Below are positions 24,290 through 63,391 of a stretch of 64,000 bases of DNA, one piece after another. A model generated the notes under the pieces. The model was not told the DNA's origin, made no database searches, and was given only the letters and a program-made list of their open reading frames with translations. A program made the position numbers and the translations under genes. Position 1 is the first letter of the stretch. Each line of letters starts with the position of its first letter. Source of the stretch: a phage. The stretch lies in the sequence record PZ386957.1. The stretch is one strand, 5' to 3'.

Positions 24290-24815
24290 TTATGATTGCA
24301 TCCAATCACGGCGTAAACTTGGATCATCGCCGTAGAGCATATCGAATAGCTCTTTGTAATTTTCTGGTAAAGTGATAATTTCCGTAACTGGTTCGTTAAT
24401 CACCTTGTGATAGTCTGATTCAGTCAAAGATGCCAACCCTTTGATGTATCGAATGTTATAACCTTTGATGTTATCACGGTCGGCTTCAAAGTCGTCAAGG
24501 CTATAGTACCAGCGTACATCATCACCTTTCTTTGGTTCCGCAATGATAATAGGTGTTTTCACAAACTTAATTCTACCTTCCTCGAACATTTCAGGCCAGC
24601 GAGCAAAGAAAGAAATAAGAGACGGTTTAATAGACCCTAAGCCAATAATCTCGATGTAAAGTTAGTTAGCCCGAAGGCTAACCATCGGTATCTGCGTCAG
24701 TCATTATCGCGATGTTTTTATACATTGTCGTTGGAGTCCGACGACGGCGTACATTCGTTTGCGCTTTGTATGCTACCATGTTCACATTCTGTGTGTCGAT
24801 TTTCTTTAATTTCAT
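24290..24815 (-). CDS. 60: gene 60 topoisomerase II subunit (GyrB C-terminal-like) with programmed translational bypass (coding gap)
   Basis: Segment 1 (24815..24681) encodes MKLKKIDTQNVNMVAYKAQTNVRRRRTPTTMYKNIAIMTDADTDG then TAG; after a 37-nt gap the frame resumes at GGC 24643 as LGSIKPSL...RYIKGLASL...DWMQS (track ORF 24290..24589). Both halves align with remembered T4 gp60 either side of its hop. Confidence 0.8.
24644..24680 (-). other. translational bypass (hop) coding gap with take-off hairpin
   Basis: Take-off GGT (24683..24681) followed by UAG and hairpin AGCC-UUCG-GGCU, as at the T4 gene 60 take-off site; landing GGC at 24643..24641. Confidence 0.75.
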
Positions 24816-25650
24816 CGATATACCTCACTAATTCTTCGTCATTATATGGATTATAACCATCTTTAAATCTGTCAAACATCTTAACGACCGATTTTCTAGG
24901 ACAGCTAAGGTTTAACGCTTTATGACATTTAGCCGCGCCAGTAGCTTTAAATCGATTAGGATCGTAGTTTGACACAAACCAATCATAAATGTCAATCGTG
25001 TGGATAATCGCTTCTTTTGGTGTTAATGGTTGTTTATACCATTTCATGCTACGCATTACAGCAGCACCAGCAAGAGACGCTTTTCTAATTAATTCTTTGT
25101 TGTGTTTGTTTATTCCGTAGAACTCACCTGATAGAACAAGCGGATCATCGACCGCTAATTGTCTACGTTCGCCTTTATCGTTGATATAGATTGTTCTGCC
25201 TTTTGCTTTCTTATTATCAAAGTGTCGGCCTTTATTCAGTCCTACATAAAGATCCTTGTTTTGTTTGTATTCCTCTTTAGAAATTATAACACATTTACCA
25301 TCACTGACGCGTTTAACAGACAAACGACCTACCATCATTTCTTTAGAGAAGTTGGAAACTACTGTTCTATGTTGTTCTCTCGCGAATTGGTACATTGCAC
25401 CTGTCTTATATTTTCCGCTATTTGTCATGCGGTTTAAGGCGTAGTGCATTTTTCTGTTGTTATAAATCTTGGTTAACAGTATATGAGCAAGAAAGTGCTC
25501 TCTATATGTAAACGAAACAAGATTGGAATCGTCATCACTCCCACCCATAGATTTGGGTAGGATGTGATGAACTTCGATACCTTTATCACGAACGAGACCT
25601 CGTAACCGGCCTTTTTCTACTAGTTGGTTATAGATCTTTTGATAATTCAT
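24718..25650 (-). CDS. HNH homing endonuclease (MobA-like) inserted between gene 39 and gene 60
   Basis: 310 aa; EVHHILPKSMGGSDDDSNLVSFTYREHFLAHIL is an HNH motif; 4-nt overlap with gene 39 stop; 3' end overlaps gene 60 segment 1 in another frame. Confidence 0.8.
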   Translation of the reverse strand: MNYQKIYNQLVEKGRLRGLVRDKGIEVHHILPKSMGGSDDDSNLVSFTYREHFLAHILLTKIYNNRKMHYALNRMTNSGKYKTGAMYQFAREQHRTVVSNFSKEMMVGRLSVKRVSDGKCVIISKEEYKQNKDLYVGLNKGRHFDNKKAKGRTIYINDKGERRQLAVDDPLVLSGEFYGINKHNKELIRKASLAGAAVMRSMKWYKQPLTPKEAIIHTIDIYDWFVSNYDPNRFKATGAAKCHKALNLSCPRKSVVKMFDRFKDGYNPYNDEELVRYIDEIKENRHTECEHGSIQSANECTPSSDSNDNV

Positions 25651-27185
25651 AACATTCTCTTAACCTCCACCCATTCACCGTTAATCAATACTTCATCGTT
25701 AATATTAACAATAATTTTCTCACCTTGCAAGTCTAGCTCGAAAAACTCACCATCTACCATTTCTTCGGAGGTGGGAACACCAAACTGTAAACCAGTGATC
25801 GCCATAATGTTAAAAATTTCGGCATTTTTAACAATTGCAGTTTCTGGTTGTCCCCACGTTGTAAGAGTTTTACCTCGCAACGGGAAACCGCCATGTAAAT
25901 CTTGATCACGTACAGAGATCAGATAGTTGATCGCGGAATCACCTTCCGTCAAAAACAGGGTAGTTTCTGCGTCAGTTCCAATAAGGTTAGCTTTAACGTG
26001 TTTTGCTACCTTAGCCCGTTTTGCTGCCTTTGCTGCCTTAGTCGCTGCCGCTTTATCTGCTGCCTCTTTGCGTGCCAATACGACCGCGATAATAGGCATG
26101 ATAATATTTTCTTTCTTCGCAATGACTTTAGCCAGCTTTTTAAAATCCAGATCAATGTGACGCTTGATATCACCAGTAGGGTTAGTCAAACGTTCTTTCG
26201 TCTGGGAATCAAAACGCAAGTTAGGCAATTCACGAACAATCAAAATACAGGTCAAACCAGACTTAACCGCAGCTTTAGTAACATCAACTTTATATTCTTT
26301 CTTGATTCGTTTTACAATTTCCTCACATAGATCATCTGTTACATAGTCTACGTGTGTTCCCCCGTTTTTGGTAAACAGACCATTAGCAAAGGATACTGAT
26401 TTAAAACCTTCACCTTCAACCGCAGGAACTAGAGCAAGTGAAAAGTTTTTATCCTCGATGACAAACGGATCATCATTGTAGAGTTTAGCATACTCTTTGA
26501 ACTTGCTGGTGATTCTCTTTCCGTTAAACTTAAACGTGATTTTAGGAAAGATAACACTCAAAGAATACAGACGGTCACAAATCACATCTGCAATCTCTTG
26601 TGACATAATCATCCCTTCAAAATGATCAAAATCAGGACAAAATGTAACCTTTGTTCCCTTTAATTTTGATGGCTTAGATGACCATGTAATATTTTCCGCA
26701 CCGTTGGTACATTGTACGGTTAATTCATTCTCGCCATCGCACGTTACACCCGTAAACCATGCGGAGAAGTATGCAGTTAACGCGCTGCCGATCCCATTCA
26801 TTCCCATAGTAACGCGGTTGGTATCATCAAAGTTAGATCCGGCTTTAGCTCGTGTCCATGCAGCGACTGGTTGCGGGATCTGTTTTCCTTCCGGTGTCGT
26901 TACGATATGTTGAGGAATACCGCGACCATTATCCGTTACCGATACAATGTTATCTTGAATATCTACGCTGATTACATTAGCAAAATCAAAATTTGTTCGG
27001 ATTGCTTCGTCTACAGAGTTGTCGATGATCTCATCGATGATTTTAACTAGCCCAGGAACATATGATACAGTTGTCCATTTACCATACAGGAATCTATTAT
27101 GTGATTCGTATGTAGTAGACCCGATATACATCGATGGTCTCTTAAGGCAGTGAGCACGATCATCTAAGAGTAAAAATTCACTCAT
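25647..27185 (-). CDS. 39: DNA topoisomerase II large subunit gp39 (GyrB-like ATPase/Toprim)
   Basis: 512 aa; IIDNSVDEA, DNGRGIP, GKQIPQ, GLTCILIV and Toprim region typical of GyrB-type ATPase, as in T4 gp39. Confidence 0.92.
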   Translation of the reverse strand: MSEFLLLDDRAHCLKRPSMYIGSTTYESHNRFLYGKWTTVSYVPGLVKIIDEIIDNSVDEAIRTNFDFANVISVDIQDNIVSVTDNGRGIPQHIVTTPEGKQIPQPVAAWTRAKAGSNFDDTNRVTMGMNGIGSALTAYFSAWFTGVTCDGENELTVQCTNGAENITWSSKPSKLKGTKVTFCPDFDHFEGMIMSQEIADVICDRLYSLSVIFPKITFKFNGKRITSKFKEYAKLYNDDPFVIEDKNFSLALVPAVEGEGFKSVSFANGLFTKNGGTHVDYVTDDLCEEIVKRIKKEYKVDVTKAAVKSGLTCILIVRELPNLRFDSQTKERLTNPTGDIKRHIDLDFKKLAKVIAKKENIIMPIIAVVLARKEAADKAAATKAAKAAKRAKVAKHVKANLIGTDAETTLFLTEGDSAINYLISVRDQDLHGGFPLRGKTLTTWGQPETAIVKNAEIFNIMAITGLQFGVPTSEEMVDGEFFELDLQGEKIIVNINDEVLINGEWVEVKRML

Positions 27186-31644: not shown

Positions 31645-32169
31645 TTAGTAGCCGCGTTCTTGACGGGCGAAATTTTCGGCATTTTTCAGGTAATACAGAA
31701 TAAACAATTCTTTAGCATCAATGCCCAACGGAATCAACTTAGACAAAATGAAATGGAGTGCGTCCACGGCCTCAAATTTCGCCTCAAGTTGGTCTTCTGG
31801 TGACAGTTCGGAGAATTTACGCGCTCGCGCTTCCCCGTGGTTCTTTTTCCATACTTTCCAAACCGCGCTTGCATCTTTACCGTTAGACATTCCACCTAGT
31901 GATGTGTAAAGCTCTCGTGTTTCGTCTGCGATTGCGTCATCCATCAGGCGCATCCAATCAAGGATTTCACCACAAGTCTCTAGCTTAGTTGGGTTCGCCA
32001 CCCAATCAAATTTTTCTGATAAAGAAACCTGTAGACCTGTTTGCATGTCCAGCATCACCTGAAACGGATCTTTACCGTCCATAATCGCACCATGATAAGC
32101 GGCGATTGCCGCATCGAGATCTTTTTCGTTAACCAGTTTAGCGCAAGAATTAAATTCTGACATATTCAC
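31645..32169 (-). CDS. 56: dCTP pyrophosphatase gp56
   Basis: 174 aa; DPFQVMLDMQ, ASAVWKVWKK, SPEDQLEAKFE, LYYLKNAENFARQERGY match remembered T4 gp56. Confidence 0.85.
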   Translation of the reverse strand: MNMSEFNSCAKLVNEKDLDAAIAAYHGAIMDGKDPFQVMLDMQTGLQVSLSEKFDWVANPTKLETCGEILDWMRLMDDAIADETRELYTSLGGMSNGKDASAVWKVWKKNHGEARARKFSELSPEDQLEAKFEAVDALHFILSKLIPLGIDAKELFILYYLKNAENFARQERGY

Positions 32170-33735: not shown

Positions 33736-34110
33736 TCATAGAATAATCTCTTTCAGTAAGTCAACAATCTGGTCTTTCGTCAGTTTATCCTGATTCTCTA
33801 CAATCTTGATAACACAAGCGTTAACGTCTTTTCGAGTCACGCGGGAGATCGTTTTAATACGATGAAACGGTTCGTAGAAATATACTGCTTCATTATAGAG
33901 CGCAGCAATTTTTCGACGCATTTGATCTTTATCCGCCAGAAAAACAATTGCAGTTTTCGGATCTACACCAGCCACATCATAAAGTTCGGCGACTCCCCAG
34001 CGTCCTTCCGGTTCAACCATACCAGCATGTTTACCGTTAATGAAGATGAGAACATCCCCGTTGTTCGCGGTTTTAAATGCTACATCTTCCGGCGTAATCA
34101 TATTTTTCAT
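33736..34110 (-). CDS. hypothetical protein (124 aa)
   Basis: ORF track. Confidence 0.4.
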   Translation of the reverse strand: MKNMITPEDVAFKTANNGDVLIFINGKHAGMVEPEGRWGVAELYDVAGVDPKTAIVFLADKDQMRRKIAALYNEAVYFYEPFHRIKTISRVTRKDVNACVIKIVENQDKLTKDQIVDLLKEIIL

Positions 34111-34140
34111 AATATAGTCTCCTTAGAGTTTCATTATAGA

Positions 34141-34776
34141 TCAATCGAATGTAGAAAGCAAATGTTTTGTTTCTTTCAGTTGTCGTTCAAGATCTTTGCG
34201 TTTCTCTTTAAGTTGCATTTTAGCATTATTTCGCTCTCTTGTAACCTCTTTATCAATGCTCTTATTCCACTTATCAATATCAGAATAAGTTGGCATACCC
34301 AATTCTAGACCTAATGCGGTTGGATACAGGGTAACAGTCCATAAACCGCTAATCTTCTTAAATAGGTCGGGGTGTAGTGTACTATCTACATCTTCCGGTG
34401 TCAACTCTTTTTCTTCTTTCAGTGGTGGGATCTCGTCATATGGTTCCAGTGCATTTACTTTAATATCAGATACCTCATCAAAGAATCCGCGTACATCCGC
34501 AGGAAATACACAAGCAATTTCCCAACCGTGATCACGCAGAGAAGTAATATTTTTCACTCCCCCACCATGTGTGATGATTGATGTGACATTGCCATCAAGG
34601 TCCACCGAATTTACGAGAAATGGCTTATCGTCTGTCAGATCATTATAAAACTGTGCTTCGGCTGTAGTCATCTCCAGAAACAGATCTCGGATCGGACGAC
34701 CATCAGGTGCGTTACCTTCCTTGAGAGTATAAAAGCGACTTACGATCCATTTTTGCGGTAAAGCATTAGCGATCAT
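34141..34776 (-). CDS. hypothetical protein (211 aa)
   Basis: ORF track; C-terminal coiled coil. Confidence 0.45.
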   Translation of the reverse strand: MIANALPQKWIVSRFYTLKEGNAPDGRPIRDLFLEMTTAEAQFYNDLTDDKPFLVNSVDLDGNVTSIITHGGGVKNITSLRDHGWEIACVFPADVRGFFDEVSDIKVNALEPYDEIPPLKEEKELTPEDVDSTLHPDLFKKISGLWTVTLYPTALGLELGMPTYSDIDKWNKSIDKEVTRERNNAKMQLKEKRKDLERQLKETKHLLSTFD

Positions 34777-34826
34777 GTTATATCTCCTATCAAATCATTC
34801 ACCAGCGCCCCGTAGGGCGCATTTTA

Positions 34827-36239
34827 TTAGAAAGTCATGTTATTTGCTAGCTCGTCGAGTTTTTCGCGTTTCTCGGCTTGCTGTGCGCTTTGTGGTTTAA
34901 TTTGTGCGTTCTCCTGGTCGGCGATCTGGTTTGGAACTTCATACCAACGCTGATTTCCTTTTTTCACACCAACGTTAAAGCGAGAATAATAGTTCTTATC
35001 GCCGTAACGAGATTTGATCTGCTTGAGCAGTTGAACGCCCATTTTTGCAAGGTCTTCGGTTTCAATCACACCCAACATAAAATCGGCTGTAGCCGGAAGA
35101 CCTGCGGATTCAGCGGTATCACTCATGTTAAGGTCCGATGCATCCCATCCCGCGCGAGTAGTCTGTGCCGCAGTCCAGCCAACAACATCCCACTTAACAA
35201 AAAATCCTCGCAGTTCTTCCGCAATAGCCTTAACTAGTGTGTAACTGTTTTCAGAGTATACACGCAAACGAGACGATGCGCAAATCCCCAGATAGTCAAC
35301 AATTACAACATCAGGTTTAAACTGTTTCTTGAGTCGCAATTCATTCATTAACGCCTCAAAGTGGTTGGAGTTCGCGCCACCAGTCGGATATTGCTTGATC
35401 ATCAGCTTGCCGATTGGACGTTCTCCGGCTTTCTTATTCTTAACACGTTTCATACGTGCCGAATATTCAGCAAAAGAAACATTACCATTATCCAATTCAT
35501 CTAAGGTAATGTCAAGCAAGTTTGCGTCAATACGTTTTGCTACTACGTGCTCTGCCATCTCCATTGAGATATACAGGACATTATAACCACATTCCATATA
35601 ATCGGCAGCGAGAGAACATAAGCCCAATGATTTACCAACGTTTACACCAGCAAGCAACACATTCAAGGTCTTTTTCTCTGCCCCACCTTTCGTTATTTTA
35701 TTCAGACTAGGCAGCTTAAACGGGATCTTATTCGCTTTAGTCTGATATAACAAGAATCGTTTTTCAAAGTCATTAAACCAGTCATGACCTACATCAGAAT
35801 CAAACGTAATGGATAGTGCCTCCTGCATGATCTCAGGAATAGCGCCCTCGCCTGGCAATTTCTTATTCTGTTTTTCTTTTGGTAGCTGTGCGTTCGCCTG
35901 AATCTCTAGCGCCCGTGACATTGCATTATACATAGCACGGTCACGAATAAATTTTTCTGTTTCCTTCATTAACCAATCAAGGTCTTCCGGTGTATTCTCC
36001 AAAGAATCAAGAAGAGTTTTAGCCCCTTCATATGTTGTCTGATTGCCTCTCTCCTTGTCTAAAGCAATCTGTAATGCTGTAGGGGTAGGAATATTGGAAT
36101 ATTCGTCTACATGCTTTTTAATCAGCTTATAAATCAGTTTTTCTTCGTCTTCGGTGAAGTAGTCCGCTTTAAGATGAGGCCATACATTCGTGAAGAATGT
36201 GCCATTATAAATCAACTGTGAAAAGATAGTTTTAATCAT
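34827..36239 (-). CDS. 41: replicative DNA helicase gp41 (DnaB-like)
   Basis: 470 aa; Walker A GVNVGKS, VLYISMEM, PDVVIVDYLG, RecA-like core as in T4 gp41. Confidence 0.9.
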   Translation of the reverse strand: MIKTIFSQLIYNGTFFTNVWPHLKADYFTEDEEKLIYKLIKKHVDEYSNIPTPTALQIALDKERGNQTTYEGAKTLLDSLENTPEDLDWLMKETEKFIRDRAMYNAMSRALEIQANAQLPKEKQNKKLPGEGAIPEIMQEALSITFDSDVGHDWFNDFEKRFLLYQTKANKIPFKLPSLNKITKGGAEKKTLNVLLAGVNVGKSLGLCSLAADYMECGYNVLYISMEMAEHVVAKRIDANLLDITLDELDNGNVSFAEYSARMKRVKNKKAGERPIGKLMIKQYPTGGANSNHFEALMNELRLKKQFKPDVVIVDYLGICASSRLRVYSENSYTLVKAIAEELRGFFVKWDVVGWTAAQTTRAGWDASDLNMSDTAESAGLPATADFMLGVIETEDLAKMGVQLLKQIKSRYGDKNYYSRFNVGVKKGNQRWYEVPNQIADQENAQIKPQSAQQAEKREKLDELANNMTF

Positions 36240-36241
36240 AC

Positions 36242-36553
36242 TTAGCCTCCAACTACACGCATAACAAAGGTCTTGAGTTTATACCAGAAAGTTTCTTTTT
36301 TCAACTTTTCTTCTGCTTCTTTGATCTGCGCGGTTAACGCCTTAATGACGTGAGGATATACCACATCACGATCTGACGGCGTGGAGTAGTCGACCACAAT
36401 ACCTTTAGTGTCTGGATCGTATTCAACATTATGAATATAGACAATATGATGCTCTCCCTCTTCATCAACAATTATCAGTTCCTGAATAACTGTCTTCATT
36501 GCTTCTTGAATCAAGCCGTGTGCTTCTTCTAAACTCGTTGGTTTCTTATCCAT
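36242..36553 (-). CDS. 40: gp40-like head vertex assembly protein (tentative, by synteny)
   Basis: 103 aa between 41 and uvsX as in T4; hydrophobic C-terminus. Confidence 0.45.
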   Translation of the reverse strand: MDKKPTSLEEAHGLIQEAMKTVIQELIIVDEEGEHHIVYIHNVEYDPDTKGIVVDYSTPSDRDVVYPHVIKALTAQIKEAEEKLKKETFWYKLKTFVMRVVGG

Positions 36554-36575
36554 AATATAATCCTCTCTAGATATG

Positions 36576-36598
36576 AAAAAGGGGCACGTAGCCCCTTT
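36576..36598 (-). terminator. rho-independent terminator downstream of uvsX
   Basis: Minus strand AAAGGGGC-TACGT-GCCCC followed by TTTTT. Confidence 0.65.
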
Positions 36599-36608
36599 AC
36601 TACCATTG

Positions 36609-37679
36609 TTATGCTAACATATCTTCGATTTCTTTGTCAACTGCTTCGTCGCTGATCACTTGCCCCAGCTTATAATGGTCATTGATTGCTTCGTTAAACT
36701 TATCGTTTGTCAGAAGTGGTTTCCAGAACTCAATGCTGTTGGTTTCTTTAGCACGGAACTTTCGTTCTTCGGTTTCCATCTCTCCGGTCTCAGTATTCAG
36801 GATGGAACGAGAATACCAGCCGTTTGACGGTTTCACTACCCAACCTAACTCTACAGCCAATTCTAGCAAACCGGAATAAGGATCGATACCACCGCTAAAG
36901 GTTACGCTAATCGGGAACTTAGATTTTTCTTTAACGGTTCGTGATTTTTCCGCATTCAGGATAAAATCATAACCAGTAATTTCGGTTCCTTCTTTCTGTT
37001 GACGACGACCGATAATAAAGCATTCGTTGGCGCTGTACATTGCGCCCGTACCACCGGACATAACGGTCTTGCTAAACATTTCTTGCGTTTCGTATGTGTG
37101 GTTAATCGCAATGCACGGAATGTCATTCATAGTCAGATATGGTGTAATCATACGGAACAAGCCTTTAAGTGCTTTAGCTCGCGTCATATCCTGCGCCGAT
37201 TTCTCATTAATCGCGTCTTCAACTTCTTTTTTGCTTGCTAAGTTACCGATTGAGTCAATAAAGATGATCACTTTATCTTCACGGGTAATTTGCTCAAGCT
37301 GGTTCATGATCTCAAATTTAAGTTCTTCGATGTTCTTGATTGGAACGTGTACCACGCGATCAGGATCTACACCCATAGATGACAGATATGCGGAAGTAAT
37401 ACCAAACTCAGAATCAAAGAACAAACAAGCCGCATCAGGATTCTGTTTCATGTATGCACTAACACAAGTTAATCCCATGTTTGATTTAAAGTGCTTAGAT
37501 GGACCAGCAAAGAAAATCAGACCAGATTGAAAGCCTTTTTTAAGATCACCAGAAAACGCAATATTCAGCATCGGGATCTTAGTGCGAGTATTTGTTTTTT
37601 CGTTAAAGAAGCTGGATTTAGACAGTACCGCAGTAGTTTTCAGGGTAGAGTTCTTTTTCAGTTTTTCCAGTACAGACAT
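36609..37679 (-). CDS. uvsX: UvsX recombinase (RecA-like)
   Basis: 356 aa; TKIPMLNIAFSG, GPSKHFKSN, FDSEFGIT, CIAINHTYETQEMFSKTVMSGGTG, EKSRTVKEKSKF match remembered T4 UvsX. Confidence 0.92.
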   Translation of the reverse strand: MSVLEKLKKNSTLKTTAVLSKSSFFNEKTNTRTKIPMLNIAFSGDLKKGFQSGLIFFAGPSKHFKSNMGLTCVSAYMKQNPDAACLFFDSEFGITSAYLSSMGVDPDRVVHVPIKNIEELKFEIMNQLEQITREDKVIIFIDSIGNLASKKEVEDAINEKSAQDMTRAKALKGLFRMITPYLTMNDIPCIAINHTYETQEMFSKTVMSGGTGAMYSANECFIIGRRQQKEGTEITGYDFILNAEKSRTVKEKSKFPISVTFSGGIDPYSGLLELAVELGWVVKPSNGWYSRSILNTETGEMETEERKFRAKETNSIEFWKPLLTNDKFNEAINDHYKLGQVISDEAVDKEIEDMLA

Positions 37680-37690
37680 TATTAATACCT

Positions 37691-37918
37691 CTATTCAGTT
37701 AATCCGTAATACTTTAATTGCTTCATTGTTATTCGATCTTTGTAGTGCTCTTGAATTAACTTTTTCATCGCATCAACATCGATCGTCACAAATACTTCGT
37801 TGCTGTGATTTCCGTGAACTTTCTTGAAGTGCTCTATCGCGTCCTCTCGTTCACGTCTAATCTTTTCGATATCTCTCATAGTATATTTCTCACGCTGGCG
37901 GGTATCGTCACCCAACAC
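37691..37918 (-). CDS. hypothetical protein (75 aa)
   Basis: ORF track; only ORF between uvsX and polymerase 43B. Confidence 0.4.
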   Translation of the reverse strand: MLGDDTRQREKYTMRDIEKIRREREDAIEHFKKVHGNHSNEVFVTIDVDAMKKLIQEHYKDRITMKQLKYYGLTE

Positions 37919-37940
37919 CCGCCATTATACACACTTTATC

Positions 37941-39380
37941 TTAAATGTCAAACAGGTCCGTAAGCGATGCCACTTTTTCATATTGCAGCTTTGCAGCCGT
38001 GGTAATGTTCTCCAGTGGTTTGACGAAAGTCTTATTGAACAACAAAGACCAGTCCAACCACTTTAACACCTCTGATTCAATTTCTGGAGGAATACGAGTA
38101 CCAGACAACCAACCAAAACAGATTTCTCCAAACGGATTTCGATCTTTGAGCGGTACGATCATAACTTTCTCGCCCTCACGAATCGGATCTAGTCCAAATT
38201 TTCGAGCATTACGATTATAACACAATACGCTCTTAACCGCATACGGACAGCCCTTAATCGGATACCCGTTTGAATCGCTGTATTTCTGTAGGTTGTTTGC
38301 AGATGATACCGCAGCAACCTCAAGATAGTCAAGTTTTCTAAATTCTTGCTCAAAAATACCGTAGTATTCCTGCAATGACTCTTCACCTTCCTGCAACATA
38401 CGACGAATACATTCTTTCAGTGATTTCTGACATGCTTTAGGTGTAGAACTACGTTGCGTTTCTAAGCCCATGATTTTTAGCTTAGGTTCAGCAAAGCGAG
38501 TTCCTTCCATATCCCAAACATTAAGAGCATAACGCTTTTTACCAGTCCAGAATCCACCGATACCCGCAGATTTCAACGGAGGACCAGCAATTGCCTCACG
38601 GTCCATAAACATCAAGTGCTCATAGTTGTTCATGTACTCGCATAACTCGCGATATCCCTTGTCGATAATAGGTTCCATTCGATGTTTACCGAAATTATCA
38701 AGGAAGTCAACAAGTTTTTCGGTATCGTCGAAACGGTCTTCCCCACCAACCTTATCAACAACATTGTTAACCAGCACATAAACGGAGTCAGTATCACAAT
38801 AACGAACATATGCAAAATCGGTTGTTCCGCAAAGTTCGTTTAAGTATTCGTTAATCTTACGCTCAATCCACTGAATTGCAAGCTGACCGAACAAAGTGAT
38901 CGCACTAGCATTACGCAGATCATACAAACGAAATTTCGGATTTCCTACATATTTTCAATGAGTCGCGCAACCAACTCACCCGCCGTTAGGCTGCTGCATA
39001 TCGCTATGCAGATAAGACTATATCACCTATCAACCGAAGTCAATAGCCCACCATTTCGAGCGCCATTAGCTTGCACCCTACACCGTTACACTCATCACGG
39101 TTAGTCGTTAGGCATTTACAGCATTATAGCTGATTTAGCACGGGATTGTCAACCAGTCCGTATACGTTGATATTCCCCGTTTAGATGGGTTTAAGGTGCG
39201 CTAGGATGTTTACGCACCATAAAGGCTGTTAATCAATACCTTTCGTGAAAGTTGGTTTGTGTTACATAGAATAGACTCGTCTTGACATATCGCTAGATGC
39301 CGTTCTAATTCCTCGATTGGTAACGAATCAAGATAGGCCAATTCTTCATCGGTGAAGTCTTTACGATGATCTATATTCAT
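37941..39380 (-). CDS. 43: DNA polymerase subunit 43B (motifs B and C), interrupted by a group I intron; exon 1 39380..39212, exon 2 38947..37941
   Basis: Exon 1 from ATG 39380 encodes MNIDHRKDF...CNTNQLSRKVLINSLYGA (motif B); spliced to exon 2 gives YGA-LGNPKFRLYDLRNAS...YCDTDSVYV (motif C). Track ORF 37941..38927 is the exon 2 part. Confidence 0.8.
38948..39211 (-). ncRNA. group I self-splicing intron (td-like, subgroup IA2-type core), ORF-less, 264 nt
   Basis: Minus strand has ACGGGGAA, GACAATCCCGTGCTAAAT, TAAATGCCTAACGACTA, TAGGGTGCAAG, CTCGAAA, GATATAGTCT, CTGCAT...ATGCAG as in the T4 td intron; P1 pairs exon GGUGCGU with GCGCACC (U.G at splice site); ends in G. Confidence 0.8.
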
Positions 39381-40198
39381 GATATATCTTTCTCCTTAAG
39401 CCGACAATTGTTAAAATGCCAGCGTTTTAAAGACTGTGCAACTCCAGATTTACCGCAATGTGGACATACAGCAATAATTTTCTTGCTTTCTTCCCAGCGT
39501 TTCTTTGCGGCTTCTTTCATCTTTTCTTTAGAGTCGTCAGACATTTTCTTACCTTTCATGCCCTTAACGCAATCTGGATTTTCTGCTATTCTAGCAAGCA
39601 TTCTTTGTCTTTGCAACTCTTTTTTCTCGTCGCTCCACCCTGCGGATATTTTATCACGTTCTTCCTGTGATAGCGTCTTACCAACTTGTTTGTGTGGATT
39701 TTTAGAATAATATTCTTTTAATCCTTTAGCGATCTTTGCCTTTGTATCATCAGAGTGAGATTTGTCAATATCTTTGTTGCTATTATACTTCTCGATGTTT
39801 CTTTTTGAAACGGCATCATAAAATTCTTTGTTTGACTTTCTCGTCTTTTTGATACCGTTAGAAACTTTGACAGCAATTACCGGATTTTTCATCGGGTTAT
39901 TGTCGCCGGAAGTGTCGATGTGATAGAAGCCACCGACACCGCCTAACGTGATGTTATATGTATCAGACCGCTTTAGAAAGTCTTCGTTTACGATCTCGGC
40001 CTCTTTGTCATAAGCGTCTTTCTCGTTATCATATTCAAACAGAATATCTTTATGGAAGTTTTCGACCCCATACTTCGCGATAGCTCGTTTGATATGAATA
40101 CCGCTACCCATATATGAATCATCTGGGTCGTCGGTCTTGTGTACACCAACATAGATCATATTGTTTATCTTATTTGTGATCCGATACACATAATACAT
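39377..40198 (-). CDS. GIY-YIG homing endonuclease (Seg-like), free-standing between 43A and 43B
   Basis: 273 aa; N-terminal YYVYRITNKINNMIYVGVHKT...YMGSG GIY-YIG motif, basic C-terminal region with CPHCG zinc finger; ATG overlaps 43A stop (TAATG), stop overlaps 43B ATG (ATGA). Confidence 0.85.
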   Translation of the reverse strand: MYYVYRITNKINNMIYVGVHKTDDPDDSYMGSGIHIKRAIAKYGVENFHKDILFEYDNEKDAYDKEAEIVNEDFLKRSDTYNITLGGVGGFYHIDTSGDNNPMKNPVIAVKVSNGIKKTRKSNKEFYDAVSKRNIEKYNSNKDIDKSHSDDTKAKIAKGLKEYYSKNPHKQVGKTLSQEERDKISAGWSDEKKELQRQRMLARIAENPDCVKGMKGKKMSDDSKEKMKEAAKKRWEESKKIIAVCPHCGKSGVAQSLKRWHFNNCRLKEKDIS

Positions 40199-41715
40199 TA
40201 TTCACCTCGTCGTTTCTTTAACATCTCCTTAATCTTTTCAGCATTACGGTCACACGCCAACATCATGTTTTTGTACTGTTTACGCTGGTCGAACACCTTT
40301 TTGATTTCAATCGGTACTACACCCTGAATATCTTTTCGATACATCCAACCGTTAGGAGAACATGAGTATTCATCGCTAGGCCGTTCCGCTGTTTTATTAA
40401 TATAGTCGATCATTGGCGCGGTGTCAAATGATCCAGCTATAGTTTCCGGCGAAATGTTAACCTGTCGGATGATAGACGGATACAGACTTGTTAAGTCAAA
40501 GCTCATCATCCAACGGTAAGCATTAGGTACTGGTTCTTTTACAAAAGCACCTGGATACGTCTGCTTAGGCTGTATCTTATTTTCCGGTACTACTTTACCC
40601 TCAGCTTTCAGAGATCCGAAGATAATAGCATCCCATACCTTCATCGGGTTATACACATGGTTAAATTTAATCTTTGCATAGTAGCATAGACTATACACAA
40701 GATCGATAAATCCGCGCTTTTTATCAATCGCCAATACACGATCAACGTCGCCGATGTTATAATCGATGTAAAGTTGATGGTTGTCATCACGCAATTTCTT
40801 TAACGGACCATCATAATCAACCTTACCGATTCCTGTCTCATATTCAGCAACATAATCTAATGCATATGTTGGTTGAGTCGTAAAGCTGAATTTCTTGTAC
40901 AGGTCAATGTAATCAAGGCTTTCGATCCCCATGATCGTAAATGCTTCACGCTCGTTGCCAAAATCATCCTGTGAGATTCGGGATTTAATCTTACCGCACG
41001 GGCTTAATCGGTTTGCCGTTCGACTTCCAAACTTATTACTGATACGCTTAATGATATACGGGATATCGAATGTTTCTGTGTTCCAGCCAGTGAAACCAAC
41101 TGGTCGATTTTCCTCAAAGAATCGGATGTATTCTAACAGCAATTCATCTTCCGTATCGTAGACGTTATAAACAACACGCTCTACTATATCAGGTCGAAGA
41201 ATAGACTTTCTTGCTTCCCATATTTCACCGTTTTTGCCTTTCAAATCAAAGACAAAGAAACGATCATGTACGGAATCATAATGCGTAATTGCATCAATAG
41301 GATATTTTGCTTCTTCTGGCTTCGGGAATTCCGGCGCAGTAACCTCAATATCAACCCATGCTACACGGATTTTATTTCGGTCATATCGAATCTCACCCTT
41401 GTATGTGTCGGATAGATAGGAGATGATAAAATCATCCATTCCTAACGCCTCTTGCCCCATCTCTCCCATCTTTTTACGCCATTTGTTGGCCTCGTTCATA
41501 GATGGGAATTTTTTAGCAATGCAAGGCTTGCCATAGATATCTTTATAATTAGTAACCATACCAGGCGCGGCATGATGAAATAAAGTTGGCGTATACTCAA
41601 CGTAACGCTCTTGTTCTTGTCCGGTATCATCAATATAACGCTCGTAGATCTTATCACCTACTCTCTCACATGACAGAAAATACATAATATAAACTCCTTC
41701 ACTTACGAAAGACAC
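40198..41715 (-). CDS. 43: DNA polymerase subunit 43A (3'-5' exonuclease domain and polymerase motif A)
   Basis: 505 aa; exo motifs (VAWVDIEV, YNIGDVD) and motif A SFDLTSLYPSII; ends ~60 residues before motif B relative to remembered T4 gp43. Confidence 0.88.
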   Translation of the reverse strand: MSFVSEGVYIMYFLSCERVGDKIYERYIDDTGQEQERYVEYTPTLFHHAAPGMVTNYKDIYGKPCIAKKFPSMNEANKWRKKMGEMGQEALGMDDFIISYLSDTYKGEIRYDRNKIRVAWVDIEVTAPEFPKPEEAKYPIDAITHYDSVHDRFFVFDLKGKNGEIWEARKSILRPDIVERVVYNVYDTEDELLLEYIRFFEENRPVGFTGWNTETFDIPYIIKRISNKFGSRTANRLSPCGKIKSRISQDDFGNEREAFTIMGIESLDYIDLYKKFSFTTQPTYALDYVAEYETGIGKVDYDGPLKKLRDDNHQLYIDYNIGDVDRVLAIDKKRGFIDLVYSLCYYAKIKFNHVYNPMKVWDAIIFGSLKAEGKVVPENKIQPKQTYPGAFVKEPVPNAYRWMMSFDLTSLYPSIIRQVNISPETIAGSFDTAPMIDYINKTAERPSDEYSCSPNGWMYRKDIQGVVPIEIKKVFDQRKQYKNMMLACDRNAEKIKEMLKKRRGE

Positions 41716-41767
41716 TCATTATAGGGGAATCGACTTAGTTTGTCAATACCCCTATCCCATCAGTATC

Positions 41768-42130
41768 TTAGCGTCCGATCTGATACTTTTCGATCAGTGT
41801 CCATTCTTCTTTCTGTTTGAAAGACAGAACACGGAAGTTATTCACTTCGGTAGTTTCAAAATCACTATCAATCAGGGTACACAGATTCCACTGCGCAAGA
41901 AGTTTTGCAATGTTATTACGGCGTAACTCATCTTCCCACGTCATTTTAACACTACGACCATCTAATTTCAATAACTCCTTGAAGTGAACGATATAATAGC
42001 GCCCTTTCTTCTGGAGAATATGACAAGATTGATACAGTGTCTTGTCTCGATTATTGGCAATGCCGCAGCGGGTTAAAGTCTCCTTAATTTTAAGGAAGTT
42101 TTCAGGATTAATCAAATTAATTTCAATCAT
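41768..42130 (-). CDS. regA: RegA translational repressor
   Basis: 120 aa; PENFLKIKETLTRCGIANNRDKTLYQSCHILQKKGRYYIVHFKELL...NNFRVLSFKQK matches remembered T4 RegA. Confidence 0.92.
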   Translation of the reverse strand: MIEINLINPENFLKIKETLTRCGIANNRDKTLYQSCHILQKKGRYYIVHFKELLKLDGRSVKMTWEDELRRNNIAKLLAQWNLCTLIDSDFETTEVNNFRVLSFKQKEEWTLIEKYQIGR

Positions 42131-48552: not shown

Positions 48553-49578
48553 CTAATTTTTTGCGCTATTTACTTCGGCTAAAAGTTCATCAGAAATACG
48601 CTTGACCGCCGCAAGTTCTTCCGGTTCTAGGTTTTGTTCTTCCAGATATTCATAGACCATCTGAATAGTGCTTTTAACCTCAATAACACCAGTTTCCTGT
48701 GATGCGCTACTCTCCAGCTTATGGACCACTTTTAGCTTGTGTACAACGGCCTCTAACGCGCTTTCTAACTTAGTTAACCCATTATCAGCGACCGTTGCGA
48801 TAAGACGCACACTAAGCCCCTTATAGCGTTCTACATCGATTTTATCATCTGACGGGTAAGTGATACGCACATGATAAGTTTTGTCGTTCTGGATAAACTC
48901 TTTTTTGTGTGTATCGGTATCAAATACCCAAAAACCACGCGGATCATTTTCGTCACCAGCCGTTAGTGTGTATGGTGTACCGATATACGTTACGTTACCG
49001 CCATCACTGATAGTATGAAAGTGACCAGAAAACACTTCACGGTATTTCTTGAGGAAGTCCGCGCTATAACCTTCGGATTTTAACCCTTTATAGAAATAGT
49101 AACCGGACAATTCCCAATGACCTACACAATATTCGCTAAATGAATTTTGAATAAACTCTAAAACCTCGGATTTATTGTCATCACAAAACCACGGGAACAG
49201 GTCGAATGATACCCCGTCAAAGCTAACGGTTTCCGGCTTATCAATGACCTTAATGCAATCATACTGGCTTAACACTTCACGCGGTGCGTTAGGCTGGATC
49301 TTGTTTCGTTTAAACATATCATGATTGCCTACCGTGATATAACAGGTGATTCCTGCCTCTTCCAGTAATGGGATGACCTTAGTACGGTTAAATTTCATGG
49401 TTTCATGAGTTATCGCCTTGCGGCAATCAAACCAATCCCCTGTCTGAATCCATGTCTTAATATCATGTTCTTTTGAGTATTCAACCGCTTTCTTGATGGT
49501 ATCAAGAATATAATCATGTACCCACGGATCATCGCCACCGATACCAGTATGCAGATCACCCAAAAGCAAAATTTTCAT
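48553..49578 (-). CDS. 47: recombination endonuclease subunit gp47 (SbcD/Mre11-like phosphoesterase)
   Basis: 341 aa; MKILLLGDLH, GDWFD, VGNHD, GHFH metallophosphatase motifs. Confidence 0.9.
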   Translation of the reverse strand: MKILLLGDLHTGIGGDDPWVHDYILDTIKKAVEYSKEHDIKTWIQTGDWFDCRKAITHETMKFNRTKVIPLLEEAGITCYITVGNHDMFKRNKIQPNAPREVLSQYDCIKVIDKPETVSFDGVSFDLFPWFCDDNKSEVLEFIQNSFSEYCVGHWELSGYYFYKGLKSEGYSADFLKKYREVFSGHFHTISDGGNVTYIGTPYTLTAGDENDPRGFWVFDTDTHKKEFIQNDKTYHVRITYPSDDKIDVERYKGLSVRLIATVADNGLTKLESALEAVVHKLKVVHKLESSASQETGVIEVKSTIQMVYEYLEEQNLEPEELAAVKRISDELLAEVNSAKN

Positions 49579-49668
49579 AGTCTCTTCCTCTCTTCGTTTT
49601 CGATGCTCTCACTATATCATAGAAAAATAAAAAGGGAAACCCCTTTCAGAGTCTCCCTTATAAAGCCA

Positions 49669-49956
49669 TTACAGCATACTTAATACCGTTTGACGTGTAC
49701 TAACCCACATAGCGGAAAGCAGTTCTGGAGTGTGTGGCTGTTTGTAGATATCACGTAATTTTCCGATAGCGTAGATATACGCATCACGGTTATCATCGAT
49801 GATAGCTTGTTCAGCCCACCGCTTAAGGCGTGCAATCTCTCGCGAGTTCTTACGCAAGATCTTTTCCGCTTTCTTAGCGGCTTTCGCCTCTAGTTCTGCT
49901 TGTACTTTGTCTACTTCATTCACTACAATCTGGTCATGTTGTTCATCGTAAGTCAT
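49669..49956 (-). CDS. hypothetical protein (95 aa)
   Basis: ORF track; between 47 and 55. Confidence 0.4.
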   Translation of the reverse strand: MTYDEQHDQIVVNEVDKVQAELEAKAAKKAEKILRKNSREIARLKRWAEQAIIDDNRDAYIYAIGKLRDIYKQPHTPELLSAMWVSTRQTVLSML

Positions 49957-49957
49957 A

Positions 49958-50191
49958 TTATTTTCCTTCTGGGATATAGTCGATGATTAAAGAAAATTCA
50001 TCTTCTGATACATTATAGCTATGTGAGATTGTACCCGTCAAGACCTCAAGATCCGGTGACTTGATATTACACGGATCGATAATCACCGGAACGCCGCAAT
50101 CTCTCAAAAATAATTTGGCGAAATACGGCACAAGGTCAGTTTCAAACTCTGCTTCTTCCAGCAAACGGGAAATATTAATTTTCAATCTCAT
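49958..50191 (-). CDS. hypothetical protein (77 aa)
   Basis: ORF track. Confidence 0.4.
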
Positions 50192-50708
50192 AGAATTGGT
50201 CCAGGCTAGGCAATTCCTCGGTCAATACATCTTCAACCTTCGGCGCTTTCGGCTTATTGACCGATTCCTCGTAATTGTTGATCTTATCGTAAATGTCCTG
50301 AATGAATGCCTCATCAGCAATCTGGCACATATCAGCGTCGCGTTCGTCATATACATGATGCACAAAATACTTATATTTTGCGGCTGTCGCTGTTCTTTCT
50401 TTTTTAATGCGCTGTACAAAGGCATTAAAGCACGCTTGCGTAATGTAAGCATGAGGATTTTTATACTTTGTCTCGTCAAAATTAATCAAACCTTTGACCG
50501 CCGCTTCGATTCCATCGTCGATCATTTCTTCGCGCCATGTTTGACTATAACCAGAAAAGTTAAAACGCCGTGATAGATTTTTAGAGATTTGCATAATTGC
50601 TAGACCGATTTGATCGCTCATTGGAACTTGTCGACCTTCGGCTGCAATTCGCTGTTTCCAACGACAAATTTCTTCGTAAAGTTCTTTATTGTTTACATAA
50701 TCAGACAC
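50175..50708 (-). CDS. 55: late sigma factor gp55
   Basis: 177 aa; [76 protein letters not shown] match remembered T4 gp55. Confidence 0.92.
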
Positions 50709-53420: not shown

Positions 53421-53421
53421 A

Positions 53422-54255: not shown

Positions 54256-54267
54256 AATATAATCCTC

Positions 54268-54732: not shown

Positions 54733-54736
54733 AATA

Positions 54737-55267: not shown

Positions 55268-55277
55268 AATAATCACC

Positions 55278-57083: not shown

Positions 57084-57111
57084 ATTGTCCTCTCTTTGTT
57101 TCGATGTGAGC

Positions 57112-57139
57112 ATTATACATGAGCTAATCATGTTGTCAA
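57112..57139 (-). promoter_or_regulatory. early sigma70-type promoter (TTGACA-16-TATAAT)
   Basis: Minus strand consensus -35 and -10. Confidence 0.6.
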
Positions 57140-62288: not shown

Positions 62289-62582
62289 TTAACCATGAAT
62301 CTTGTTTTTGACTACAAAGGATCGGAACTCATCAAAGCCACCAATATAATCACCATCATAGAAAATCTGCGGCATGGTGGCAATAACTTCTACCCCTGCG
62401 CGATCCTGAATATCGGCAATGATAGAATCAATCTTTACAGGGCGACCGTTTTCGTCCACACCATCATTAACCGGAATGTAGATGTAAGGGATCTTACGCG
62501 CTTCACAAAGGCGCTTTGCATTCTGGCAATACTTACAGTTGTAACCTTCAAAACCAAAAATTTCTACCATGTTATACCTCAA
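62289..62582 (-). CDS. nrdC: thioredoxin/glutaredoxin NrdC
   Basis: 97 aa; CKYCQNAKRL active site and MPQIFYDGDYIGGFDEF match remembered T4 NrdC. Confidence 0.88.
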   Translation of the reverse strand: MRYNMVEIFGFEGYNCKYCQNAKRLCEARKIPYIYIPVNDGVDENGRPVKIDSIIADIQDRAGVEVIATMPQIFYDGDYIGGFDEFRSFVVKNKIHG

Positions 62583-63391
62583 TCTACGTTAGTTACATAA
62601 ACTTCTTGCGTATCAGAAGACTTGCCACCTGAACGATCTAGGCAATAGGTCTTATTCAACAGGACGCAGTTTAAATCATTCCGCTTGATAAAATCAAGCA
62701 AATGGTTGTTAACTTTCCCTTTGTGGTGAGTAACATTGCTTAATCCAAACTTAGTACCGCTAGACATTAATGATTCTATCCACATGTAGAATTTAATCTC
62801 TTCTTCTTCACTCCAGAACTTATTATATTCTGCCGACGTGATCCAATATGGCGGGTCCAAATAAACGAAATCACCGGGCAAGATCTCGATCTCGTCATAA
62901 CGACCAGACGTAAAATTGATTCGACCGTCTTTGTTTTCTTCTTTAAAATTCAGGACACGCTCTACCGCGTTTTCGTTAAAAGTCCGGCGACCAAAATTAG
63001 CATTAAATTCGCCCTTTCGGTTATGGCGGTTAATGTTGCTAAAACTATGCTGAATCAGAACAAACAGAGATAGCGGATCTGGATTCTCGTTATACTTCTT
63101 GCGGAATGCCATATAAGAATCTTTATCATCACGAGACAAACCATTCTCGGCAATAATCCGCTTGATCGTAGAAACCGGATCAGGGCACTCGTCAATCGCT
63201 TTGTAAGCATCAATTAAGCGGTGATCATAGTCATTAGCCAGAACATCCCCTTCGACGTACAGAGACACGCTCAAACCGCCACAAAAGGCATCGACAAAGC
63301 GGTTATAGTGCTTAGGGAAATACTTACTAACACCTGGCAATAACTTTTCCTTATTGCCAGTATAGGGAATTAAACCTAATGCTTTCTTCAT
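62579..63391 (-). CDS. dam: DNA adenine methyltransferase Dam
   Basis: 270 aa; AYTGNK-like N-terminus (PYTGNKEKLLP), RFVDAFCGGLSVSL (motif I), DFVYLDPPY (motif IV), YNKFWSEEEE match remembered T4 Dam. Confidence 0.9.
   Translation of the reverse strand: MKKALGLIPYTGNKEKLLPGVSKYFPKHYNRFVDAFCGGLSVSLYVEGDVLANDYDHRLIDAYKAIDECPDPVSTIKRIIAENGLSRDDKDSYMAFRKKYNENPDPLSLFVLIQHSFSNINRHNRKGEFNANFGRRTFNENAVERVLNFKEENKDGRINFTSGRYDEIEILPGDFVYLDPPYWITSAEYNKFWSEEEEIKFYMWIESLMSSGTKFGLSNVTHHKGKVNNHLLDFIKRNDLNCVLLNKTYCLDRSGGKSSDTQEVYVTNVD

What the first reader, a model, noticed from the sequence alone, without database searches (positions are those of the whole stretch)
36553..37941. No dCMP hydroxymethylase or beta-glucosyltransferase gene at the expected position between uvsX and gene 43
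In T4, beta-gt and gene 42 lie between uvsX and gene 43. Here only a 75-aa ORF separates uvsX from polymerase 43B, and no alpha-gt-sized ORF lies between 47 and 55, although dCTPase gp56 and Dam are present. The cytosine-modification genes are either elsewhere in the genome or absent, which bears on how this phage evades restriction.
Basis: partly seen in the sequence, partly recalled or inferred. Interest (0 to 1): 0.4.

Follow-up and report, generated by a model that had tools for sequence, protein, structure and literature searches.

The report
RB49-like phage lacks T4 cytosine-modification genes
The window comes from an RB49-like (Krischvirus) relative of phage T4 that has no genes for making glucosylated hydroxymethylcytosine; this is a long-known trait of the group, whose genomes have instead lost most restriction-enzyme sites.

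Summary
On the minus strand the order is gene 40, uvsX (36609-37679), one small ORF (37691-37918, probably 62 aa), a perfect sigma-70 promoter, then the end of gene 43 (stop 37943-37941). T4 has 3.6 kb here carrying segA, beta-gt, 42, imm and imm.1. Between genes 47 and 55 there are only two small ORFs. gp56 and Dam are present.

The window is about 95% identical to phage RB49, and RB49 has the same junction. T4 gp42, alpha-gt, beta-gt and Alc find nothing in the window or in the complete RB49 genome. The one exception is a weak hit of gp42 to RB49 thymidylate synthase, which carries Asn, the thymidylate-synthase residue, where gp42 has Asp.

The literature already records this. RB49-type phages lack 42, alc and denB, and RB49 DNA is cut by cytosine-modification-sensitive enzymes.

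As a new supporting result, 22 of 64 six-base palindromes are absent from RB49 and 23 from the window. The syntenic T4 DNA shows no such depletion. This points to unmodified DNA that escapes restriction by site avoidance.

One caveat: a 2026 paper reports one modified Krischvirus with no known pathway.

Verdict: real, already known, low interest. In passing I found two homing-endonuclease cassettes, in gene 43 and in gene 39/60; the second includes a T4-like ribosome "hop".

The parts
36242..36553 (-). gene 40 (head vertex assembly chaperone), downstream neighbour of uvsX
   Evidence: Pfam Phage_head_chap E 5.6e-25; syntenic with RB49p023
36609..37679 (-). uvsX recombinase (356 aa)
   Evidence: Pfam T4_UVSX_C and RecA; 63% identical to T4 UvsX; matches RB49p024
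37691..37918 (-). the only ORF between uvsX and gene 43. It is 75 aa from a GTG and most likely 62 aa from ATG 37878. Function unknown.
   Evidence: phrog_12120 (unknown function) E 1.9e-40 over residues 14-75; no Pfam hit; homologue RB49p025 is 62 aa; sequence read
37924..37951 (-). sigma-70-type early promoter (TTGACA, 16 nt, TATAAT) overlapping the end of gene 43
   Evidence: 12 of 12 consensus match; RB49 annotates an early promoter at the same place
37941..38947 (-). gene 43B exon 2 (C-terminal part of the DNA polymerase); stop codon at 37943-37941
   Evidence: The spliced 43B product (391 aa) is 93.6% identical to RB49 gp43 residues 503-892
31645..32169 (-). gene 56 (dCTPase/dUTPase-type NTP pyrophosphohydrolase)
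   Evidence: 52% identical to T4 gp56, E 4e-54; phrog_173
62579..63391 (-). dam (D12-class N6-adenine DNA methyltransferase)
   Evidence: Pfam MethyltransfD12 E 1.4e-30; 46% identical to T4 Dam
48553..49578 (-). gene 47
   Evidence: collinear with RB49 gene 47
49669..50191 (-). two small ORFs (95 and 77 aa, homologues of a-gt.4 and a-gt.5), the only content between 47 and 55; no alpha-gt
   Evidence: T4 alpha-gt finds nothing
50175..50708 (-). gene 55 (late sigma factor)
   Evidence: collinear with RB49 gene 55

Best explanation
The window comes from a Krischvirus, an RB49-like 'pseudo-T-even' phage. In this lineage the uvsX-43 and 47-55 intervals are short junctions, and the T4 network for glucosyl-hydroxymethylcytosine DNA is missing altogether: gene 42, alpha-gt, beta-gt, alc and denB. 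The phage therefore replicates and packages DNA with ordinary cytosine.

Shown here:
- The junctions are as described.
- Homologues are absent from the window and from the complete RB49 genome.
- RB49's single thymidylate-synthase-family gene has the thymidylate-synthase-type residue at the position that differs in gp42.
- Six-base palindromes are strongly depleted.

Taken from the literature:
- RB49 DNA is cut by HpaII and NheI.
- RB49 transduces plasmids.

Inferred:
- Restriction is escaped mainly by loss of Type II and EcoKI recognition sites.
- GATC sites are kept because Dam methylates them.
- gp56 serves dUTP clearance and the dCMP to dUMP to dTMP supply rather than exclusion of dCTP.
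For: - The window is about 95% identical to RB49 and to 59 other Krischvirus records across 34000-42000.
- RB49 has the same order: uvsX, a 62-aa ORF, then 43.
- T4 carries segA, b-gt, 42, imm and imm.1 in this interval, and a-gt and mobB between 47 and 55.
- tblastn and phmmer --max with T4 gp42, a-gt, b-gt and Alc find nothing in the window or in all 164,018 bp of RB49. The best result is gp42 against RB49 td, at E 0.008 and 0.084.
- RB49 td is a Pfam thymidylate synthase (E 1e-84) with GLPFN aligned to gp42 GFRND.
- Pfam and PHROG scans of 27 further window ORFs show no glycosyltransferase or thymidylate-synthase-like domain.
- Apart from tail-fibre divergence (9762-12039) and three short stretches of 208-358 bp, the segments of the window with no match in RB49 are two homing-endonuclease cassettes.
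- Palindrome avoidance: 22 of 64 six-base palindromes are absent from RB49 and 23 of 64 from the window. Examples for RB49: TCCGGA 0 against 65 expected, AAGCTT 0 against 38, GGATCC 0 against 34, GAATTC 2 against 46. Summed observed/expected is 0.70 for RB49 and 0.66 for the window.
- T4 control: 46 kb of syntenic T4 DNA gives observed/expected 0.92, with HindIII 32 against 31 and EcoRI 19 against 21.5.
- EcoKI sites: 0 in RB49 (about 14 expected) and 1 in the window (5.5 expected). GATC is not depleted (945 against 889).
- Literature: PMC2993671 Table 4 (42, alc and denB absent from RB49-type phages; 56 and denA present); PMC4041780 (RB49 lacks the hydroxymethylase and beta-gt; HpaII and NheI cut its DNA); PMC12115623 and PMC8056088 (plasmid transduction by RB49).
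Against: - Only 64 kb, about 39% of a roughly 165-kb genome, of this particular phage is visible. Its full genome was not found in the public collections I could query. Absence elsewhere therefore rests on RB49 as a proxy.
- PMC13390438 (2026) reports that Krischvirus SAP carries 5-hmdC and alpha-gentiobiosyl-methyl-dC, while its 99.96%-identical sibling TB34 has canonical C, and no responsible genes were found. If that is real, lack of homologues does not prove lack of modification.
- Homology searches cannot exclude a non-homologous pathway among the many ORFs of unknown function.
- The roles proposed for gp56 and Dam are inferences, not tested here.
Confidence: 0.9

Rival explanations
1. 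The modification genes exist in this phage but lie outside the 64-kb window, moved to another hyperplastic region.
For: About 100 kb of this genome is unseen. T4-like genomes shuffle accessory genes between hyperplastic regions. The full genome could not be retrieved.
Against: - The complete genome of RB49 (82-96% nucleotide identity block by block) has no such genes anywhere.
- The literature describes the whole genus as lacking them (PMC13390438, PMC12115623, PMC2993671).
- The window itself shows extreme palindrome avoidance, which would not be maintained on glucosyl-hmC DNA. T4 shows none.
Confidence: 0.03
2. Krischviruses, possibly including this one, modify cytosine by a cryptic pathway not homologous to gp42 and the T-even glucosyltransferases, as reported for phage SAP.
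For: PMC13390438 reports HPLC/MS detection of 5-hmdC and alpha-gentiobiosyl-methyl-dC in SAP DNA and BrxU sensitivity, with no candidate genes. Many window ORFs have no known function, for example four tandem phrog_5347 paralogues at 52944-55276 and ORFs at 55999-57131.
Against: - SAP's modification profile is the same as that of seven Tequatrovirus phages in the same collection, and its 99.96%-identical sibling TB34 is unmodified. My reading, which is an inference, is that a stock or sample mix-up has not been excluded.
- RB49 DNA is cut by modification-sensitive enzymes (PMC4041780).
- Genome-wide loss of Type II sites indicates long-term exposure of unmodified DNA to restriction.
- No thymidylate-synthase-like or glycosyltransferase domain was found in the window.
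Confidence: 0.05
3. The gap is a recent deletion or an assembly artefact specific to this isolate.
For: None found.
Against: Fifty-nine independent Krischvirus records cover at least 80% of the 8-kb query spanning this junction. The intergenic promoter and the small ORF are conserved with RB49.
Confidence: 0.01

Closest known systems
Escherichia phage RB49 and other Krischvirus genomes (phi1, JSE, GEC-3S, TB34 and others)
   Same: About 95% nucleotide identity and the same gene order: 40, uvsX, small ORF, 43, and 47, a-gt.4, a-gt.5, 55. Also the same presence of 56 and dam, the same absence of 42, a-gt, b-gt and alc, and the same set of missing six-base palindromes.
   Different: - Gene 43 here is split by a GIY-YIG endonuclease gene and carries a group I intron.
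- Gene 39 is split by an HNH endonuclease gene with a bypass element.
- The HNH ORF that RB49 has between 47 and a-gt.4 is missing here.
- The tail-fibre tip differs.
Phage T4 glucosyl-hydroxymethylcytosine system (genes 42, 56, 1, a-gt, b-gt, alc, denB, arn)
   Same: Shares the flanking replication and recombination genes, as well as gene 56, dam and, in RB49, denA, cd, td, frd and gene 1.
   Different: Lacks the hydroxymethylase, both glucosyltransferases and Alc, and denB and arn according to PMC2993671. T4 shows no palindrome avoidance in the syntenic 46 kb.
Restriction-site avoidance in phages with unmodified DNA (general phenomenon; PMC6286503)
   Same: Selective, near-total loss of many Type II palindromic sites and of EcoKI sites, with other palindromes at the expected frequency.
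   Different: Here it occurs in a T4-like myovirus whose famous relatives rely on base modification instead. GATC is retained, alongside a phage Dam methylase.

Membership tests
T-even type glucosyl-hmC DNA modification system | dCMP hydroxymethylase (gp42; thymidylate-synthase fold with Asp at the pyrimidine-specificity position) | tested here: not met
   No match in the window or the RB49 genome apart from td (E 0.008 and 0.084). td has Asn (GLPFN) where gp42 has Asp (GFRND).
T-even type glucosyl-hmC DNA modification system | DNA alpha- and/or beta-glucosyltransferase | tested here: not met
   tblastn and phmmer --max gave nothing below E 0.02, and the best hit is 10 bits on the antisense strand of the holin gene. 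No glycosyltransferase domain in the scanned ORFs.
T-even type glucosyl-hmC DNA modification system | dCTPase/dUTPase gp56 | tested here: met
   Window 31645-32169, 52% identical to T4 gp56. Not diagnostic, because gene 56 occurs in almost all T4 relatives (PMC2993671 Table 4).
T-even type glucosyl-hmC DNA modification system | Functions that discriminate against dC-DNA (Alc, DenB) | tested here: not met
   Alc gave no hit in the window or RB49. I did not search for denB; it is reported absent from RB49-type phages (PMC2993671 Table 4; PMC12115623).
T-even type glucosyl-hmC DNA modification system | Virion DNA actually contains hmC or glucosyl-hmC | not testable with these tools
   For RB49, restriction digests show unmodified C (PMC4041780). 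For this phage, LC-MS is needed.
Genus Krischvirus (RB49-like phages) | High nucleotide identity and collinearity with RB49 | tested here: met
   82-96% identity in collinear blocks across the whole window; about 95% over 34000-42000.
Restriction-site avoidance strategy | Recognition sites far below expectation while comparable words are not depleted, with a modified relative as control | tested here: met
   22 of 64 (RB49) and 23 of 64 (window) six-base palindromes are absent against expectations of about 8-65 for most; the others are near expectation. The T4 control gives observed/expected 0.92.
Split gene 43 with seg-like endonuclease plus group I intron (Aeromonas phage 25 type) | 43A and 43B cistrons, a free-standing GIY-YIG gene between them, and a group I intron in 43B | tested here: met
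   Splicing, endonuclease cleavage and polymerase assembly cannot be tested here.
MobA / translational-bypass cassette of the topoisomerase gene (T4 gene 60 type) | Split gene 39/60; an HNH MobA-like ORF; take-off and landing codons read by one tRNA; a stop codon after take-off; a UUCG stem-loop; GAG 6 nt before the landing codon | tested here: met
   compared with 10.1101/2022.08.31.505936. Actual bypassing cannot be tested here.

The most novel reading that the evidence does not exclude
Some Krischviruses, perhaps this one, may make hydroxymethyl- or glycosyl-cytosine DNA by enzymes unrelated to gp42 and the T-even glucosyltransferases. This would fit the unexplained 2026 report that phage SAP is fully modified while its 99.96%-identical sibling TB34 is not. 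The missing genes at uvsX-43 would then mark an undiscovered pathway rather than unmodified DNA.
Probability: 0.05. Interest if true: 0.75.

Novelty: already known. Interest (0 to 1): 0.12.

Why it matters
It matters little as a discovery. The absence of gene 42 and the glucosyltransferases from RB49-type phages, and their unmodified cytosine, have been in the literature since the early 2000s. RB49 is routinely used as the unmodified T4-like control.

The useful outcomes are practical:
- The window is identified as a Krischvirus.
- gp56 and Dam should not be read as signs of an hmC pathway.
- The genome-wide loss of restriction sites gives a concrete, testable account of how such a phage copes with Type II and EcoKI restriction. 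It also argues from sequence alone that the lineage's DNA has long been unmodified, which bears on the puzzling 2026 SAP report.

Tried and rejected
- I looked for the complete genome of this exact phage. A 45-nt exact pattern from the gene-43 endonuclease found nothing in IMG/VR, and an exact-protein look-up found nothing. RB49 was therefore used as the whole-genome proxy.
- I asked whether RB49's unusually long td (410 aa) could be a disguised hydroxymethylase. It is not: Pfam calls it a thymidylate synthase (E 1e-84), matched in two stretches with extra sequence between them, and it has Asn at the position where gp42 has Asp.
- I scanned 27 window ORFs of unknown or uncertain function with Pfam and PHROGs for glycosyltransferase, thymidylate-synthase-like or other base-modifying domains. 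None were found.
- I checked whether the window carries extra genes relative to RB49 that could encode a modification pathway. The segments with no RB49 match are tail-fibre divergence, three short stretches of 208-358 bp and two homing-endonuclease cassettes.
- I checked whether the few residual 'avoided' sites sit in the newly acquired cassettes. They do not, so this was uninformative.
- The Rfam gathering-threshold scan of the whole window returned nothing. The intron was found only when the short region was searched.
- I did not fetch the SAP and TB34 genomes to repeat the published SNP comparison, and I did not use the large protein-database or structure tools, because the answer did not depend on them.
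Full report
**Identity of the window.** An 8-kb query around the finding (34000-42000) matches 69 phage records. The best are Krischvirus genomes (RB49, GEC-3S, UPWr_E1, TB34, SAP and others) at about 95% identity. A blastn of the whole window against the concatenated RB49 genome gives collinear blocks of 82-96% identity. These run from RB49 position 142081 through the end of the record and on to 41343. The window is therefore about 39% of an RB49-like genome, with the early genes on the minus strand.

**The observation.**
- On the minus strand the order is gene 40 (36242-36553), uvsX (36609-37679), one small ORF (37691-37918), then the end of gene 43 (stop codon 37943-37941).
- The small ORF matches phrog_12120 (unknown function) over residues 14-75, and the RB49 homologue RB49p025 is 62 aa. 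Its real start is therefore probably ATG 37878.
- A perfect TTGACA-16-TATAAT promoter lies at 37951-37924, where RB49 annotates an early promoter.
- The uvsX-43 interval is 261 bp. In T4 the same interval is about 3.6 kb and holds segA, b-gt, 42, imm and imm.1.
- Between gene 47 (48553-49578) and gene 55 (50175-50708) there are only homologues of a-gt.4 and a-gt.5, of 95 and 77 aa. T4 has 47.1, a-gt, mobB and a-gt.2 to a-gt.5 there.
- gp56 (31645-32169, 52% identical to T4) and Dam (62579-63391, 46% identical, D12-class methyltransferase) are present.

**Are the genes elsewhere?**
- I fetched the whole RB49 genome and the T4 proteins.
- tblastn at E<=10 with T4 gp42, b-gt, a-gt and Alc against RB49 plus the window gave only chance-level hits. 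The exception was gp42 against RB49 td (23% identity, E 0.008), the expected thymidylate-synthase-family paralogy.
- The positive controls gp56, Dam, DenA and UvsX were all found.
- phmmer with filters off against every six-frame ORF of at least 50 aa gave the same answer.
- RB49 td is a Pfam thymidylate synthase (E 1e-84, matched in two stretches) and has no paralogue.
- In the pairwise alignment td shows GLPFN where T4 gp42 has GFRND. From established knowledge of the family, that Asn/Asp position sets dUMP against dCMP specificity, so td is not a hidden hydroxymethylase.
- Pfam and PHROG scans of 27 window ORFs found no glycosyltransferase or thymidylate-synthase-like domain.
- Apart from tail-fibre divergence and three short stretches of 208-358 bp, the window segments with no RB49 match are two homing-endonuclease cassettes.
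- The exact phage is not in IMG/VR or in the assembly index, so absence from its unseen 100 kb is inferred from RB49.

**What is already known.**
- Petrov et al. 2010 (PMC2993671, Table 4) list gene 42, alc and denB for T-even, JS98, RB69, CC31, Acinetobacter and some Aeromonas phages, but not for the RB49 type. Gene 56 and denA are listed for almost all.
- Yaung et al. 2014 (PMC4041780) use RB49 as the unmodified T4-like control. They state that it lacks the hydroxymethylase and beta-gt, and they show that HpaII and NheI cut its DNA.
- PMC12115623 and PMC8056088 note that Krischvirus lacks the hydroxymethylase and endonuclease IV, keeps DenA and gp56, and transduces plasmids.
- The finding is thus a correct rediscovery of a known genus trait.

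**How restriction is evaded.**
- I counted palindromes against Markov expectations. In RB49, 22 of the 64 six-base palindromes are completely absent. Examples: TCCGGA 0 against 65 expected, AAGCTT 0 against 38, ACCGGT 0 against 35, GGATCC 0 against 34, GAATTC 2 against 46.
- The 64-kb window lacks 23 of them. The remaining palindromes sit near expectation, so the distribution is bimodal.
- Summed observed/expected is 0.70 for RB49 and 0.66 for the window. It is 0.92 for 46 kb of syntenic T4 DNA, where HindIII and EcoRI sites occur as expected (32 against 31, 19 against 21.5).
- EcoKI sites number 0 in RB49 (about 14 expected) and 1 in the window (5.5 expected).
- GATC is not depleted (945 against 889), consistent with protection by the phage Dam.
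- RB49 also encodes an Eco57I/MTS-type methyltransferase outside the window.
- This pattern is the signature of unmodified DNA under selection by Type II and Type I enzymes. It supplies a mechanism: site avoidance plus adenine methylation, in place of cytosine hypermodification. That this is the operative mechanism is an inference.
- The suggestion that gp56 works mainly in dUTP clearance and in feeding dCMP to the cd-td route is also an inference.

**A caveat from 2026.** PMC13390438 reports that Krischvirus SAP contains 5-hmdC and alpha-gentiobiosyl-methyl-dC and is BrxU-sensitive. Its 99.96%-identical sibling TB34 has canonical cytosine, and no responsible gene could be found. The SAP profile equals that of seven Tequatrovirus phages from the same collection. 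I consider a stock or sample problem not excluded, which is my inference. The palindrome depletion argues that the lineage has long carried unmodified DNA. I give the cryptic-pathway reading about 5%.

**Noticed in passing: gene 43.**
- Gene 43, a single ORF in RB49 and in all 70 Krischvirus records matched, carries about 1.07 kb of extra DNA here.
- 43A runs from 41715 (GTG; the RB49-homologous start is ATG 41685) to a TAA stop at 40200-40198.
- A 273-aa GIY-YIG/NUMOD3 endonuclease gene follows at 40198-39377, overlapping both neighbours.
- 43B starts at ATG 39380.
- A 264-nt group I intron at 39211-38948 interrupts the SLYGA|LG motif. It scores 52 bits against Rfam RF00028 (gathering score 50; E 1.8e-12). 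The 5' exon ends in U and the intron ends in G.
- The spliced 43B product is 93.6% identical to RB49 gp43 residues 503-892.
- The endonuclease's nearest relatives (37-47% identity) are the seg-like genes in the split gene 43 of Aeromonas phages 25, phiAS4 and Aes508, and of E. coli phage G2285.
- The architecture is that described for phage 25 (PMC2988022).

**Noticed in passing: gene 39/60.**
- Gene 39, one 607-aa ORF in RB49, carries a 1138-bp insertion at 24638-25775.
- Gene 39 now occupies 27185-25647 (512 aa). A 310-aa HNH ORF follows at 25650-24718. It is 37-41% identical to MobA-type genes in the split topoisomerase genes of Aeromonas, Acinetobacter, Proteus and E. coli phages.
- A gene 60 then starts at 24815. 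Its reading frame stops after ...MTDADTDG at GGU UAG and resumes 37 nt later at GGC UUA GGG.
- The gap begins UAGCCUUCGGGCUA and ends GAGAUUAUU, exactly as in the T4 gene 60 'hop'.
- The joined product is 85% identical to RB49 gp39 residues 478-607 across the junction.
- The take-off stem-loop is predicted to form. The change of the take-off codon from GGA to GGU is matched by a U-to-A change in the pairing partner.
- Such cassettes, including GGU/GGC codon pairs and shorter gaps, were catalogued in a 2022 preprint. That preprint does not mention RB49-like phages.
- Both cassettes are new members of known kinds.

**Verdict.** The finding is already known and of low interest (0.12). The most novel reading still open is a cryptic Krischvirus cytosine-modification pathway.

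Noticed in passing
window 37941-41715 (minus strand): DNA polymerase gene 43 is split, unlike in RB49 and all 70 matched Krischvirus records. The layout is: 43A (to stop 40200-40198); a 273-aa GIY-YIG/NUMOD3 homing endonuclease gene (40198-39377); 43B from ATG 39380; and a 264-nt ORF-less group I intron (39211-38948; Rfam RF00028 52 bits, E 1.8e-12) inside the SLYGA|LG motif. This is the same architecture as Aeromonas phage 25, and the endonuclease is only 37-47% identical to those relatives.
   Followed up: yes
window 24290-27185 (minus strand): Topoisomerase gene 39 (one ORF in RB49) is split by a 1138-bp insertion that carries a 310-aa HNH MobA-like gene (25650-24718). It also carries a T4 gene-60-type translational bypass element: take-off GGU (24683-24681), UAG, a CCUUCGGG hairpin, a 37-nt gap, and landing GGC (24643-24641). 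The coding gap is 40 nt against 50 in T4, and the flanking motifs are identical to T4. This is a new, divergent member of the MobA/bypass cassettes catalogued in bioRxiv 10.1101/2022.08.31.505936, which lists no RB49-like phage.
   Followed up: yes
whole window; RB49 genome (L003-L006): Extreme, bimodal avoidance of six-base palindromes. 23 of 64 are absent from the window and 22 of 64 from RB49, with expectations of about 8-65 for most. EcoKI sites are nearly absent. GATC and about half of the palindromes are at expectation. No such avoidance is seen in 46 kb of syntenic T4 DNA.
   Followed up: yes
window 52944-55276 (minus strand): Four adjacent ORFs (166, 277, 159 and 179 aa) between nrdH and nrdG all match the same family of unknown function, phrog_5347 (E 1e-59 to 1e-70), with weaker goF-like matches. 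This is a tandem paralogue array with no Pfam domain.
   Followed up: partly
window 50749-52221 (minus strand): A 490-aa ORF directly downstream of gene 55, annotated as hypothetical in RB49 (RB49p044), has a DEAD/DEAH helicase-like N-terminus (Pfam E 1.3e-06) and matches phrog_2467.
   Followed up: partly
window 49579-49668, compared with RB49 26380-26934 (L003): RB49 has an HNH/AP2 endonuclease gene (RB49p040) between gene 47 and a-gt.4. The window lacks it and has a 90-bp spacer instead.
   Followed up: partly
L005 36870-38102 (RB49 td, outside the window): RB49 thymidylate synthase is 410 aa, about 125-145 aa longer than usual. Pfam matches it in two stretches, with extra sequence of unknown nature inserted in the middle of the domain.
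   Followed up: partly
window 9762-12039 (plus strand): The distal long-tail-fibre gene region has no detectable nucleotide similarity to RB49 apart from a 230-bp match at 11247-11476, so the receptor-binding tip presumably differs.
   Followed up: no
window 38948-39211: Methodological note: the Rfam gathering-threshold scan of the full 64-kb window reported no family. The group I intron nevertheless scores above the gathering threshold when only 451 bases are searched. A negative whole-window scan therefore does not exclude introns.
   Followed up: yes
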